From contig NW_021834693.1 of assembly GCF_006345805.1 (NCBI RefSeq), positions 1-45,702 on the forward strand: a DNA stretch of 45,702 nt, written 5' to 3'. Origin of the DNA: Octopus sinensis. Its lineage: Eukaryota. The stretch's first letter is position 1. Each line of letters begins with the position of its first letter. Made by a program: the position numbers and the translations under genes. The notes under the pieces are model-generated. The model was not told where the DNA came from, did no database searches, and was given only the letters and a program-made list of their open reading frames with translations. This document shows, in pieces, positions 8,584 through 40,175 of the stretch.

Positions 8584-9815
8584 TTAGCGTCCGTTTTCCA
8601 TGCTAGCATGGGTTGGACTGTTCAACTGGGGTCAGTGAAGCCAGAAGGCTGCATCAGGCCCAGTCTGATCTGGCAGTGTTTCTAAGGCTGGATGCCCTTC
8701 CAAACGCCAGCCACTCCGTGAGTGTAGTAGGTGCTTTTTACGTGCCACCCGCACAGGTGCCAGACGGAGCTGGCAAACGGCCAAGGACGGATGGTGTTTT
8801 TTACGTGTCACCGGCACGGAGGCCAGTCGGGGTGGCGCTGGCAACGGCCACGATCGGATGGTCCGCTTACTTGTCACCGGCACTGGTATCACAGCTGCAA
8901 TTTCCACTGATGTTGATCGACTTCGATTTTGGTTCTGCTTTCTGATATCTGATTTGATTTGGTTTGATTTTGATTTTTTGATTTTGATTTTCACTTGTCT
9001 CAACGGGTCTTCACAAGTGGAGTTCTGTGTCCCAAGAAGGAAAGGTATGTATAAGTCGACTGGCTACATACCAGGTAGAGGCCACGGGTTATGGTCTCAC
9101 TAGTCTTGCCGGGTCTTCTCACGCACAGCATACTTCCATAGGTCTATGTCTCTAGTCATTTCCTTGGTGAGACCTAAAGTTCGGAGGTCGTGCTTCACCA
9201 CCTCGTCCCAGGTTTTCCTGGGTCTACCTCTTCCACAGGTTCCCTCAGCTGCTAGGGTGTGGCACTTTTGCACACAACTATCTTCATTCATTCTCGTCAC
9301 ATGACCATACCAGCGCAGACGTCTCTCTTGCACATCACAACTGATGCTTCTTAGGTCCAACTTTTCTCTCAAGGTACTTACACTCTGTCGATTATGAACA
9401 CTGACATTACACATCCATCGGAGCATACTGGCTTCATTTCTTGCGAGCTTACGCATATCCTCAGCAGTCACAGACCATGTTTCACTACCATGTAGCATGG
9501 CTGTACGTACACATGCCTCATACAATCTGCCTTTTACTCTGAGCGAGAGGCCTTTTGACACCAGCAGGGGTAAGAGCTCTCTAAACTTTGCCCAGGCTAT
9601 TCTTACTCTAGCAGTTACACTTTCAGCGCACCCACTGACTTGGTCACCTAGGTAGTGGAAGCTATCTACTATTCTAGTTTTTCTCCCTGGAACGTGGTAG
9701 AAGTTGGTCTCTGCACATTTTCAGTGTTTATTGCTCCTGAGCATCTGCCACAGACAAAAACTCTTTTCCTAGTTAGCCTTCCTTTGGCATTGCTGCACCT
9801 CTTATGTGTCCACTG
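8584..9815 (-). mobile_element. 5'-truncated RTE-clade LINE (RT C-terminus plus ~515-bp 3' UTR)
   Basis: WTHKRCS..FVCGRC, HYLGDQ, RIAWAKFRELLP upstream, then the open ORF at 9100-9561; UTR homologous to many solo copies. Confidence 0.92.
9100..9561 (-). pseudogene. RTE LINE ORF C-terminal fragment
   Basis: KGRLYEACVRTAMLHGSETW, MLRWMCNV, RLRWYGHV.RM and GRGRPRKTW are typical RTE motifs. Confidence 0.92.
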
Positions 9816-11110: not shown

Positions 11111-13062
11111 GTGATGATGGTGATGATGATGATGATGATGTTGGTTATTTTCCTCAAATGAAATTAATGAAAGAGAACCCATATCAATAGAAAAGGGAGA
11201 GATAATTACTGGCCCTTTTCTCTCAAGTGATATGTCTTTCTGACTGTTTCGGGTTGATGACAGAATATTTGATGACAGAATGTTGAAAAGAATTTGAGTC
11301 ATTACTCTTATCCCTGGCTTCAACATTTTCATTCTCAGCCTTTGCTTCAGAATCACTGCTACATGACAGACCAACACAACCAGGCGTTTCCCCAAGAGAA
11401 ACAGAAAGTGAAACTGAACTGTCAGAGAGAAGAACTATTTCATGTTTTGTATCTCCACTTGCATTGCAAAGCAGCTGCAACTGGGATTGTTCATTGGAAG
11501 TTTCAATTTGAACAAATGCTTTGTTGCCTTCCTCAAGGGACGTATCAAGGCTGTCACTAGCAGAAATATGTTCTTCCACTGAAGACAAATTTAGGGAACT
11601 ACTAGGTAAGGGCAACTCTTGGCAAGGTCCTGATGAAGAGTCTGAAATGTTAGGTAATGGTGAAGATGTAAACTGACCGGGATCAATTCTAGACTTGAAC
11701 AACCCATAGCTGCTTCTACCTGATATTACTTCTGTATTCATGCTCTCTGGAGTCGACCAAGTCTGGCTGCTACATGGATATGAAGTATCAGATAAAATAA
11801 CACTTGTATGTGACTCCAAACATGGATGTTCATTTTTGCTGTCTCTACCAGAATCAGTCAGTACCAAATCAGATTGGCCAAGACGACCAATTGTTTCATT
11901 TAAGAGATCAGCAGTTTCAGAAAATTGATTCTGGAATTATTCTTAGATTTTAAATTACTATTTACAATTCTTCTTTTGCGACTAGAAAACCAAAGGCTAG
12001 AAAGGCAACAAAAATATTTGTTGCTATGAAACATTTTTTTCTTCCGTTCATGGTGAGCAGACACTGGAGTGTTTTGTTCCATGTAATTCTCCAACTGACA
12101 CTTTTTGATGAGTTTTCTTTTGCGAGAGATAACTTGCTGTCGCTTTGGTGATCTCCCCCATACTTTCTTGGTGCAAGCAGTTTTCTCAATTCGACACTGT
12201 TTTATATAGTGTGAATGATATTCAAACTTTCTCAGACCACGTGGTTTGTTATAATTTTGACCATAAGGGCAGTCTGAGGTGTCCCCTGTGAAAGCAGGGT
12301 AACCATCAGTTAAACTTGATAAGGATGAAGTAGACAAAGGTTCGGCATTACCTTCATCATTAGCCTCAGTTCTATGAATACTGCTAAGGTTAGCATATGT
12401 TGGTCTCTTTTCCAAACGAGGTGTTGTAACATTTACCTCAATGGGTTTTCTCTGTTCATCACTTGAACAGGTTTGACGCTTATCAGATATAAACTTTGTA
12501 AAAGAATCTTCCTTTGAATATTTTGTTGATTTTTTAGGCCATGAGGAAACAGATGACAATGATGATGATAATGATGAGGACATTGGTGGTGACAGTATAC
12601 CATGAGTTTTTAACGAGTCAGGTTGATTTGTTGGAGACTGAACCATATTGGATGCTGAACTTTGCGACATAGGTGAACAGTACAATTTGTAATTTGTAGT
12701 CTGACTATGTAGTATAACCGGAGGCATTGGTGTTGACTCAGAAGGACAGAGTAAATTTTTGTTCCTCGTGTCACCAACTTTTGATTGTTCAAAACTCTGA
12801 TCTTCATCATCGTCTGTGTCACTGGACATTTTTAATAGGGCTTCAATGGTACGGTTCCCATAATCTAAGCCTACATTTGAAGATGTAATTGGAAGAGGCC
12901 CGCAATGAGAAAGTTTTTCCATGTTGGGCAAAATTGTTCTACAACCCATCCGACAGAGTGTTTTTTTTTTAATTTTTCTTTCACAGAATATGTTACCATC
13001 TATCTTAATGTTATTCATCAAATCAGGATTGTCAACCAGTGAAGTGAGGGATCAAATGCAAC
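10170..13062 (-). pseudogene. Large (~2.9 kb) disrupted coding exon of an unidentified Ser-rich protein with a poly-His tract
   Basis: Chain of abutting same-strand ORFs (373, 214, 195, 102, 72 aa) in non-repetitive DNA; acceptor ttttatttccag| before 13062; several frameshifts; lower boundary uncertain. Confidence 0.7.
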
Positions 13063-22382: not shown

Positions 22383-22995
22383 GGATCTTTTCCTTTTGAA
22401 CGGCAGTTTTCAACACAATTTCTAGTTAACTAAACACTTTTAAACTTCGTATACTGGTAGAATGTGTCAAAATAAAACATTTTTTCTCTTGGCTTTCTTG
22501 AGAAAATTGTAATTTGTAAGTTTAACGTAGTTTAATTTTTCGAATTTTAACCAATCCTATGGCCTCTATTTCGCTAAAATCATTTGCTGCGTCTAAAACA
22601 GGCAACATCCTGTCACTAACTCTAATCCTCACCCTAACCCTAAATTTTAGCCTTTCGTTTTTTTTCTTCTTAATTGTTAAGTTAATTTAAGGATAACAAT
22701 TAAGAAAAAAAAACGAAAGGCTAAAATTTAGGGTTAGGGCGAGGGTTAGAGTTAGGGTTAGTGACAGGATGTTGTCTCAGTTTTAGACGCAGCTAATGAT
22801 TTTAGCTCAATAGAGGCCATAGGATTGGTTAAAATACGAAAAATTAAACTATGTTAAACTTATAAATTACAATTTACTCAAGAAAGCCGATAGAAAAAAT
22901 GTTTTATTTTGACACATTCTACCAGTATACGAAGTTTAAAAGTGTTTAGTTAACTAGAAATTGTGTTGAAAACTGCCGTTCAAAAGGAAAAATCC
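22383..22995. mobile_element. Foldback element/MITE with ~300-bp inverted arms carrying telomere-like repeats
   Basis: Arms 22383-22679 and 22694-22995 are near-perfect reverse complements; ccctaaccctaa on the left, ttagggttaggg on the right. Confidence 0.92.
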
Positions 22996-23020
22996 ATATA
23001 TATATATATATATATATATA

Positions 23021-23290
23021 AAACAATTGCAGCGTGGAAGGTGTTTGTAAGCCATTTAAGAAACACACAAAAGCCGTTCAATTCACTTCAACATTTAAGT
23101 TTAATTTGTCAAAACATTTTCGTCGCTTTAAGACCGCAACCTGTTCACTGACAAAAATGTTGAAGTGAATCGAACGGCTTTTGTGTGTTTCTTAAATGGC
23201 TTACAAACACCTTCCACGCTGCTATTGTTTTCGTTCCAGCACACGATCTCAGATCAAATCACTTGCTATGCAAGTACATCTCCGTAATAT
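23021..23290. mobile_element. Penelope-like pseudo-LTR fragments in inverted arrangement
   Basis: Arms 23021-23096 and 23155-23230 are reverse complements; flanked by (TA)n; homologous to 36868-37195; contains the hammerhead fold. Confidence 0.6.
23105..23155 (-). ncRNA. Candidate minimal type-I hammerhead ribozyme (variant core)
   Basis: tttgtca GTGAACA g gttgc ggtcttaaa gcgac GAAA atgt T T tgacaaa: 7-bp stem I, 5-bp stem II, minimal stem III. Confidence 0.62.
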
Positions 23291-36867: not shown

Positions 36868-37195
36868 AGTTACAGAGATGTACTTGCATAGCAAGTGACT
36901 TGATCTGAGATCGTGTGCGGGACGAAAACAGTTGCACGTGAAGAGTGTTTATAAGCCATTTAAAGAAACACACAAAAAAACAGTTAAGATTCACTTCAAC
37001 ATTTAAATTAAAATTGGTCAAAATACATTTTCGTCGCTTTGAGACCGCGACCGTTAGCACGATATTTTGTCAGTGAACAGGTCGCGGTCTCAAAGCGACG
37101 AAAAATATTTGGCAACTTAAATTTAAATTTGAAGTGAATATGTAACGGTTTTTTGTGTTTCTTAAATGGCTTACAAACACCTTCCACGCTGCAAT
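36868..37195. mobile_element. Penelope-like pseudo-LTR inverted pair, second locus
   Basis: Homologous to 23021-23290; inverted about ~37055-37065; flanked by (TA)n. Confidence 0.6.
37067..37115 (+). ncRNA. Candidate minimal type-I hammerhead ribozyme, second copy
   Basis: ttgtca GTGAACA g gtcgc ggtctcaaa gcgac GAAA aata T T tggcaa. Confidence 0.6.
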
Positions 37196-38685: not shown

Positions 38686-38925
38686 CCCTTTCGTTACTAT
38701 ATTTCTGACCAAAATACACCCCTTATGTGTTTCAATTAATTTCTAACGTAATCATAAATTTAGTCTGGTTTCATTAAACAACTATAACTTTTTTATTTAT
38801 CAATATATTAATGTGATTTTTGGAAGATAATTTAATGAAATGTCCTCAAAACCAATTCTATACTATAATTTTGTCACAAAGTGACTCTAATTGCAGGTAG
38901 ATACAGGTAAATTCAACAATATATA
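38686..38925. mobile_element. piggyBac terminal segment
   Basis: TTAA|CCCTTTCGTTAC, the same TIR as the MITE at 7302. Confidence 0.8.
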
Positions 38926-39960
38926 AAATTATTAAAATTTTGTTCAAACATCGCTATAGAAAATGGGTTATTAGCTAATATTCAATTGGGTATACAACAA
39001 AATTTTATGATAGAATTTGTTATTCTGGGTAACTTTCTGTAAAATTATTAAAATTTTGTTCAAACATCGCTATAGAAAATGGGTTATTAGCTAATATTCA
39101 ATTGGGTATACAACAAAATTTTACGATAGAATTTGTTATTCTGGGTAACTTTCTGTAAAATTATTAAAATTTTGTTCAAACATCGCTATAGAAAATGGGT
39201 TATTAGCTAATGTTCAATTGGGTATACAACAAAATTTTACGATAGAATTTGTTATTCTGGGTAACTTTCTGTAAAATTATTAAAATTTTGTTCAAACATC
39301 GCTATAGAAAATGGGTTATTAGCTAATGTTCAATTGGGTATACAACAAAATTTTACAATAGAATTTGTTATTCTGGTAACTTTCTGTAAAATTATTAAAA
39401 TTTTGTTCAAACATCGCTATAGAAAATGGGTTATTAGCTAATATCAATTGGGTATACAACAAAATTTTACGATAGAATTTGTTATTCTGGGTAACTTTCT
39501 GTAAAATTATTAAAGTTTTGTTCAAAAATCGCTATAGAAAATGGGTTTTAGCTAATATTCAATTGGGTATACAACAAAATTTTACAATAGAATTTGTTAT
39601 TCTGGGTAACTTTCTGTAAAATTATTAAAATTTTGTTCAAACATCGCTATAGAAAATGGGTTATTAGCTAATATTCAATTGGGTATACAACAAAATTTTA
39701 CGATAGAATTTGTTATTCTGGGTAACTTTCTGTAAAATTATTAAAATTTTGTTCAAATATCGCTATAGAAAATGGGTTATTAGCTAATATTCAATTGGGT
39801 ATACAACAAAATTTTACAATAGAATTTGTTATTCGGGGTAACTTTCTGTAAAATTATTAAAATTTTGTTCAAACATCGCTATAGAAAATGGTTATTAGCT
39901 AATTCAATTGGGTATACAACAAAATTTTACGATAGAATTTGTTATTCTGGGTAACTTTCT
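38925..39960. repeat. 116-bp tandem repeat, 9 copies (about 1.2 more at 40864-41001)
   Basis: tgttcaaa starts at 38941, 39057, 39173, 39289, 39404, 39519, 39634, 39750 and 39866. Confidence 0.96.
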
Positions 39961-40175
39961 GATACCCATAATAATATTTATGGCAAAATAGGCCTTAATT
40001 TCATTTAAGGTTGTGGGAAATAACAAACTATCCTTTCTTTCGTTTTGTTTACGTTTAGCGTAACGTTTCGTTTCTGCCGTAATGATTTCAAATGATTTCA
40101 AATTCGAAAAAGTAAATAGAAATAGTCTAAGGCTTTACTCTTCTGGGAAAGTCTGTGGCTTGGTGCAGTTTCTTC
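39935..40175 (-). pseudogene. piggyBac transposase fragment (second copy ~40976-41215)
   Basis: FEIITAETKRYAK..PTTLNEIKAYFAINIIMGIRKLPRITN matches the piggyBac pattern ETN.YA..T..EI.AF....MG..KLP. Confidence 0.8.

What the first reader, a model, noticed from the sequence alone, without database searches (positions are those of the whole stretch)
23105..23155. Hammerhead-ribozyme fold with a swapped G3-C8 core and an extra nucleotide in a Penelope-like repeat
Seen: the minus strand reads uuuguca-GUGAACA-g-guugc(ggucuuaaa)gcgac-GAAA-augu-U-U-ugacaaa, giving stem I (7 bp), stem II (5 bp), GAAA and a minimal stem III before a UH site. Established: the core is C3UGANG8A; C3-G8 is a tertiary Watson-Crick pair that tolerates compensatory swaps; an extra residue between A9 and stem II occurs in the CChMVd viroid hammerhead; Penelope-like elements carry minimal type-I hammerheads whose short palindromic stem III permits dimer activity. 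Inference: this is a natural G3-C8 plus extra-G variant that a CUGANGA motif search would miss. Activity is not shown.
Basis: partly seen in the sequence, partly recalled or inferred. Interest (0 to 1): 0.85.

Follow-up and report, generated by a model that had tools for sequence, protein, structure and literature searches.

The report
Swapped-core hammerhead in octopus retroelement
Thousands of copies of a Penelope-type jumping gene in what is likely an octopus genome carry a hammerhead RNA motif with two paired core letters swapped; it likely still cuts itself slowly, but no cutting has been shown.

Summary
The motif at 23105-23155 (minus strand) is real. It is the hammerhead of a Penelope-like retroelement (PLE) family in a likely octopus genome.

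G3-C8 is the family norm: 5,190 of 5,678 pattern hits, and 0 of 12 double variants are C3-G8. The parent element encodes RT plus GIY-YIG. The motif lies in its 5' UTR, between a likely start site 58 nt before the predicted cut and the AUG 57 nt after it.

Related PLE families keep a Watson-Crick pair at 3-8 as C-G or U-A; another PLE family in this genome has A-U. A model built without G3-C8 sequences ranks both window copies first.

The extra nucleotide is ordinary for PLE hammerheads. The engineered C3G/G8C swap partly rescues a lizard PLE hammerhead (PMC11167929). I found no natural G3-C8 in print, but key papers were not held. The scan noted G3-C8 before in protist PLEs and a phage (unchecked).

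Cleavage is not shown: 56 of 68 insertions read through the site, and this copy is truncated and probably misfolds. Verdict: new variant of a known kind.

The parts
23105..23155 (-). Minimal type I hammerhead motif with G3-C8 core
23149..23155 (-). Stem I, 5' strand (7 bp with 23105-23111)
23142..23148 (-). Core G3-U4-G5-A6-A7-C8-A9
   Evidence: G3-C8 in 5,190 of 5,678 family hits
23141..23141 (-). Extra G between A9 and G10.1 (clade-wide; either of the two Gs could pair with C11.1)
   Evidence: PMC4209133
23122..23140 (-). Stem II (5 bp, G10.1-C11.1) with 9-nt loop; the loop varies between subfamilies
23113..23121 (-). GAAA plus stem III palindrome; AAUAUU in the family, AAUGUU in this copy
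23111..23112 (-). Predicted cut between U17 (23112) and U1.1 (23111)
   Evidence: inferred from hammerhead numbering; not observed
23020..23155 (-). Short arm of the insertion, about -43 to +92 relative to the cut; lacks the likely start site at -58
   Evidence: 94% over 136 nt to intact copy L204
23155..23287 (+). Inverted long arm, +16 to +148, with the 57-nt PLE tail and the parent ORF's AUG at 23196-23198 (first 30 codons)
36870..37195 (+). Second, older insertion of the same family, also a foldback; G3-C8 motif at 37066-37116 (+) with a shifted palindrome

Best explanation
This is a truncated, inverted copy of the pseudo-LTR of a Penelope-like retroelement whose minimal hammerhead motif has G3-C8 fixed in place of C3-G8, and in the parent element the motif likely acts as a slow, conditional self-cleaving RNA that would need a second copy or the element's own protein to cut. 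Shown: the family, the parent ORF, the motif's position in the 5' UTR, the paired changes at 3-8 between families, and that inserted copies were made from RNA not cut at this site. Inferred: transcription starts 58 nt before the cut; the AAUAUU palindrome completes stem III in a dimer; U17 in place of C17 spares G3 from a Watson-Crick trap with position 17. A cut would remove the cap from the ORF's mRNA and, at the 3' pseudo-LTR, separate the ORF from the reverse-transcription start sites at +91 and +148. Only a weak ribozyme is therefore compatible with transposition. The window copy itself is probably inactive.
For: (1) Fixed in the family: 5,190 of 5,678 hits G3-C8; 62 of 70 arms in a sample anchored on the tail, not the core; 0 of 12 double variants C3-G8. 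[quoted passage not shown] (3) 3-8 covariation in scans that did not ask for pairing: 9 of 9 motifs in 40 GIY-YIG loci are Watson-Crick (C-G 2, U-A 6, A-U 1); 4 of 5 in 47 metagenome loci, all four just 3' of the ORF. The two nearest sister families (50-60% protein identity) have U3-A8 and C3-G8. On 12 aligned motifs the 3-8 pair is formed in 12 of 12 and all pairs in 91% of cells against 71% shuffled (rows are related). (4) Between the older and younger subfamily 17 columns vary: 4 in loop II, 1 in stem I that keeps a U-G pair, 12 outside, none in core, stem II or palindrome. Contigs of four runs under three organism labels list variants at 20 places, none in the core and two in stems, both giving U-G. 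(5) In the predicted 208-nt transcript stems I and II form with the core open. (6) C3G/G8C partly restores cleavage of the Anolis PLE hammerhead, which cuts only with its protein (PMC11167929).
Against: No cleavage is seen. 56 of 68 long arms cross the predicted cut, only 1 starts at +1, and that one is also explained by fold-back at stem I. The subfamily signal is modest: at the outside rate about 4 changes are expected in the 42 non-loop positions and 1 is seen; about 1 is expected in the 11 core positions and 0 is seen (my arithmetic). The double-hammerhead fold is not the predicted minimum: -28.8 against -32.7 kcal/mol for the best dimer and -30.8 for two monomers in L204; the best fold adds a G3-U17 pair. 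No loop I-loop II tertiary contact was identified. Minimal PLE hammerheads cut poorly even with the canonical core (PMC4209133). In the window copy AUGU pairs with the core (mean pairing probability 0.56 against 0.21 in L204). Pfam and PDB do not recognise the ORF.
Confidence: 0.62

Rival explanations
1. The motif descends from a PLE hammerhead but no longer cuts. The fold, including the 3-8 pair, is kept for another job, such as binding the element's protein or shaping the 5' UTR.
For: Insertions come from uncut RNA. Hammerhead mutants do not affect insertion by the Anolis element in vitro, and no RNA-seq reads ended at its cut site (PMC11167929). Naiad PLEs thrive without canonical hammerheads (PMC8557442 passages). 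A sister family has C at position 9 (8 of 9 loci).
Against: The 3-8 pair forms in the catalytic conformation (PMC3884650 passage), and U4-G5-A6, G12-A13-A14, A15.1-U16.1 and H17 are all kept across families at 35-60% protein identity.
Confidence: 0.25
2. The motif is a decaying relic. Two independent mutations drifted to G3 and C8 in one master copy, and the pairing is coincidence.
For: Single changes at 3 or 8 abolish activity, so a path through an inactive state is likely; no intermediate or C3-G8 subfamily is left; core decay among copies is neutral.
Against: No family examined has a fixed mismatch at 3-8, while all four Watson-Crick pairs occur; stems change only to wobble pairs between subfamilies.
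Confidence: 0.1
3. The hammerhead layout is a chance reading of an AT-rich foldback repeat.
For: The loose pattern and the local fold are not above chance.
Against: Same position in the element as canonical hammerheads of related PLEs, covarying stems, and recovery by an independent model.
Confidence: 0.03

Closest known systems
Minimal type I hammerheads in PLE pseudo-LTRs (Cervera and de la Pena 2014, PMC4209133)
   Same: Location in the pseudo-LTR, extra nucleotide between 9 and 10.1, G10.1-C11.1, palindromic stem III, UH site (UU is common in their Fig. S3).
   Different: Their 56 listed motifs have C3-G8 (53) or U3-A8 (3), as their descriptors required; none has G3-C8. Stem I is longer here (7 bp) and the extra letter is G.
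Anolis Poseidon PAc hammerhead and its engineered C3G/G8C double mutant (Frangieh et al. 2024, PMC11167929)
   Same: Same swap; two internal reverse-transcription start sites inside the ORF that give the tail; uncut RNA is the template.
   Different: Here the swap is natural and fixed; the cut lies 57 nt before the AUG instead of 26 nt after it; the protein has a Neptune/Nematis-type linker.
Natural U3-A8 hammerheads (Perreault et al. 2011, PMC3088659; Schistosoma Cercyon PLEs)
   Same: Compensatory change at the 3-8 tertiary pair in nature.
   Different: U3-A8 needs two transitions and keeps a purine at 8; G3-C8 needs two transversions and puts a pyrimidine at 8.
Viroid hammerhead with an extra core nucleotide (De la Pena and Flores 2001, cited in PMC4209133; the name CChMVd is recalled)
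   Same: One unpaired nucleotide after A9.
   Different: Canonical core and full stems; paper not read.

Membership tests
Hammerhead ribozyme (type I) | Three-way junction with stems I and II and U4-G5-A6, A9, G12-A13-A14, A15.1-U16.1, H17 | tested here: met
Hammerhead ribozyme (type I) | Literal CUGANGA consensus (C3, G8) | tested here: not met
   G3, C8 in 5,190 of 5,678; no Rfam hammerhead match. Filed as a variant, not a consensus member.
Hammerhead ribozyme (type I) | Watson-Crick pair between positions 3 and 8 | tested here: met
   G-C here; 12 of 12 aligned motifs paired
Hammerhead ribozyme (type I) | Site-specific self-cleavage 3' of H17 | not testable with these tools
   Only contigs were available; genomic junctions show uncut templates
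Hammerhead ribozyme (type I) | Loop I-loop II tertiary contact | not tested
   No search made; poorly defined in minimal PLE motifs
PLE minimal hammerhead | Lies in the pseudo-LTR of a PLE | tested here: met
PLE minimal hammerhead | Extra nucleotide between 9 and 10.1, G10.1-C11.1, palindromic 15.1-16.1 | tested here: met
   palindrome imperfect in the window copy
PLE minimal hammerhead | Works as a dimer | tested here: inconclusive
   Six-pair palindrome present, but the double-hammerhead fold is about 4 kcal/mol above the best dimer
Penelope-like element, EN+ | Single ORF with RT and C-terminal GIY-YIG | tested here: met
   Motifs read; homologues named reverse-transcriptase-domain proteins; EN region 49% identical to L070, which passes PF01541. 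Direct Pfam scan was blank.
Penelope-like element, EN+ | Partial tandem or inverted insertions with a tail | tested here: met
   38 of 68 with an inverted arm; short arms end near +91, long arms near +148; tandem junction L322
Neptune/Nematis clades | CX2-5CxxC linker between RT and EN | tested here: met
   C-x3-C-x2-C; definition from PMC8557442
Neptune/Nematis clades | Phylogenetic placement with reference elements | not tested
   No named reference PLE proteins were at hand; the tree has none

The most novel reading that the evidence does not exclude
PLE hammerheads are selected to be weak. In this element the ribozyme sits between cap and AUG and between the ORF and the reverse-transcription start sites, so a cut triggered by the element's own protein or by RNA dimerisation would decap the mRNA and destroy full-length templates: a built-in copy-number brake. 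The 3-8 pair is the tuning knob, and PLE families of this one genome have fixed all four Watson-Crick pairs there (C-G, U-A, A-U, G-C), a natural rate series.
Probability: 0.2. Interest if true: 0.78.

Novelty: new variant of a known kind. Interest (0 to 1): 0.52.

Why it matters
It supplies natural covariation for the hammerhead's catalytic 3-8 pair with the two combinations (G-C and A-U) that I did not find reported from nature in the papers I could read. It shows that CUGANGA descriptors and Rfam miss at least 5,000 motifs in one genome, so PLEs reported to lack hammerheads may carry swapped ones. It also gives a defined system for an open question, namely what PLE hammerheads do: a parent ORF with open frames, a likely start site, the AUG and both reverse-transcription start sites are mapped around the motif.

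Tried and rejected
- Canonical sister subfamily with the same flanks: none (0 of 12). The C3-G8 hits (19 against 2 control; 10 viewed) belong to other repeat families; they were picked by a pattern resembling this motif, so I left them out of the model (two are in alignment A4).
- Pile-up of 5' ends at the cut: none.
- Splice-acceptor reading of the 5' ends near -57 (the DNA there looks like a branch point, pyrimidine tract and AG): rejected as the main cause. Copies end at -58 with one extra G and share no letters beyond it. An intron is not excluded.
- Coding constraint on the core: the motif lies upstream of the AUG, and the ATG at -56 runs into a stop within the motif (read).
- RNA evidence: no RNA holder listed; all four runs laid were contigs, so no ends, strand or level.
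- Pfam and PDB: no informative hit.
- First nine-row alignment misaligned three rows; they were dropped for A3, which still has one row shifted in its 3' part.
- Tree: quick method only, careful search unfinished; L105 and L106 dropped for short coverage; the fork joining the three genome families is open, so the order of swaps is not resolved.
- The tail-anchored sample is 70 of the first 100 listed of 5,707 hits, all from the start of contig C1; 2 local duplicates dropped; six loci share one junction and are not independent; alignments ending at -207 to -240 run into microsatellite and are unreliable.
- Papers not held: Lunse et al. 2017, Przybilski and Hammann 2007, Martick and Scott 2006.

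Full report
Observation. Alone it is weak: the loose core pattern gives 6 matches against 4.8 by chance, the 61-nt fold has z = -1.44 and pairs the core with AUGU, and Rfam gives no hammerhead among 27 matches at E <= 10. A second copy lies at 37066-37116.

The family. The window is contig C11164 of a 2.72-Gb genome. It is likely an octopus: the best homologue of the element's protein, at 58% identity, is labelled Octopus vulgaris, and the flanking repeats match my recollection of octopus DNA. A 22-nt pattern with positions 3 and 8 left free has 5,678 hits against 0 for the reversed control; 5,190 are G3-C8. Of 12 hits changed at both positions none is C3-G8. In a sample anchored on the 3' tail rather than the core, 62 of 70 arms are G3-C8. 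The swap therefore belongs to the master element.

The parent. Walking upstream led to elements with stop-free frames of 1042 (L203), 839 (L204) and 793 (L158) codons. [quoted passage not shown] Pfam and PDB scans of the ORF were uninformative. The assignment rests on these motifs, on homologues named reverse-transcriptase-domain proteins and on 49% identity to locus L070, which passes PF01541. The linker fits the Neptune/Nematis type (PMC8557442, passages); the clade was not tested with references. The motif lies 0.9-1.05 kb behind the stop. In the tandem copy L322 the same pseudo-LTR runs straight into the ORF, with the AUG 57 nt after the predicted cut and in frame with the L203 protein; L323 shows the same join from +13 on.

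How the copies were made. Of 68 insertions, 38 have an inverted arm. Short arms end near +91 and long arms near +148 (the reference used stops at +143). This is the PLE tail, which in the Anolis element marks two internal reverse-transcription starts (PMC11167929, main text read). 56 of 68 long arms cross the predicted cut, 31 begin between -61 and -51, and one begins at +1. Among all loci held, 16 of 23 copies that end at -58 carry a G at -59, where 24 of 24 longer copies have C or T, and the letters beyond it are mixed (P about 9e-6 against 25%). I read this as the copied cap of a transcript starting at -58 in an initiator-like TCAGAT; both the cap signature and the initiator consensus are recalled, not from a call. 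Templates were thus full 5' ends of uncut RNA. The window copy starts near -43, folds back at +16 and lacks this start site.

Is the fold under selection? Among copies, no: the 11 core positions differ at 3.9% of cells, against 2.4-4.1% decay within subfamilies, 6.2% downstream with subfamily sites included, and 26% in loop II. Between the two subfamilies 17 columns vary; none is in the core, stem II or palindrome, one in stem I keeps a U-G pair, and four are in loop II. This is suggestive only (about 4 expected in 42 positions, 1 seen). Contigs from four runs under three organism labels show variants at 20 places, none in the core and two in stems, both giving U-G. Between families the signal is strong. 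The sister families at 50-60% protein identity have U3-A8 with a near-identical stem II (L205-L207) and C3-G8 with C at 9 (8 of 9 loci). Scans that did not require 3-8 pairing found it in 9 of 9 motifs near GIY-YIG frames in this genome and in 4 of 5 motifs in 47 metagenome loci; the fifth is antisense, and shuffles gave 0-2 hits each. One family has A3-U8 in 89 of 90 hits. On 12 aligned motifs 91% of cells pair against 71% shuffled, and the 3-8 pair is C-G 6, G-C 3, U-A 3 (related rows, imperfect alignment). A model built from 7 non-G3-C8 motifs ranks the two window copies first. C3-G8 is the likely ancestor because 3 of 4 distant relatives have it, but the quick tree does not order the changes.

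Mechanism. Stems I and II form with the core open in the predicted 208-nt transcript. Stem III is a six-letter palindrome with no room to close as a monomer, so a dimer or protein help is inferred. The double-hammerhead fold is about 4 kcal/mol above the best predicted dimer. Kalweit and Hammann note that a G3-C8 variant is less active with C17 than with G17 (data not shown; PMC3884650, passages). U17 across this clade allows only a G3-U17 wobble, which may have permitted the swap (inference). A cut would take the cap off the mRNA and would separate the ORF from the +91/+148 start sites, so any insertion reaching upstream of +1 needs uncut RNA. A slow, conditional ribozyme fits both the conserved chemistry and the uncut templates. 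A non-cutting structural role fits the second but explains the first less well. The window copy's AUGU lets the core mispair (0.56 against 0.21), so it is probably dead.

Comparison with print. Cervera and de la Pena 2014 (PMC4209133; main text parts 1-2 of 4, supplement file 2 parts 1-2 of 3; file 1 not searchable) describe the extra nucleotide, G10.1-C11.1, the palindrome, U3-A8 and low dimer activity. Their 56 motifs are C3-G8 or U3-A8 by design of the search. Perreault et al. 2011 (PMC3088659; section 8 and passages) report U3-A8. Frangieh et al. 2024 show partial rescue by engineered C3G/G8C. I also saw passages of PMC6765202 and PMC6155905 and part 1 of 5 of bioRxiv 10.64898/2026.07.22.740005; these showed no natural G3-C8. 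Eight searches listed none either. Lunse et al. 2017, with its large variant set, was not held and could contain it; nor were Przybilski and Hammann 2007 or Martick and Scott 2006. The scan's own notes list G3-C8 motifs in two protist PLEs and a phage (unchecked, not counted as support), and nothing for this sequence or genome.

Verdict. A real, family-wide G3-C8 hammerhead variant in a PLE: homology about 0.95, slow conditional cleavage about 0.62. New variant of a known kind, interest 0.52.

Noticed in passing
L071:2064-2104 (+): Another PLE family has a hammerhead-like motif with A3-U8, C17 and a very short stem II; 89 of 90 genome hits are A3-U8.
   Followed up: partly
L213:3653-3702 (+) and L208-L216: Sister PLE family with C3-G8 but C at position 9 in 8 of 9 loci; metagenome locus L275 has U3-A8 with C9.
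   Followed up: partly
L060:2354-2406 (+), L066, L207:1922-1968 (-): Three separate PLE families of this genome with U3-A8 cores.
   Followed up: partly
L322:225-250: The likely start site at -58 overlaps a sequence shaped like a 3' splice site (branch point, pyrimidines, AG); copies ending there carry one extra G.
   Followed up: partly
window 22388-22991: A different foldback element next to the finding: 212-nt arms at 96% with telomere-like repeats inside; its Rfam microRNA matches are all below the gathering score.
   Followed up: no
window 38924-39961: Tandem array of nine 116-bp units at 97% identity.
   Followed up: no
window 11223-13051 (-): Two long serine-rich open frames (237 and 383 codons), possibly host exons.
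   Followed up: no
window 9100-9720 (-): 206-codon frame resembling the end of a LINE reverse transcriptase (resemblance recalled).
   Followed up: no
L002 (G000:C9762:56101-59311): A near-identical copy of this locus with its flanks on another small contig: assembly duplicate or segmental duplication.
   Followed up: no
L080, L086, L090, L246, L263, L269: Six insertions share the same fold-back junction with 12 extra letters, so a rearranged palindromic copy has itself been amplified; window 37038-37056 has a similar junction.
   Followed up: no
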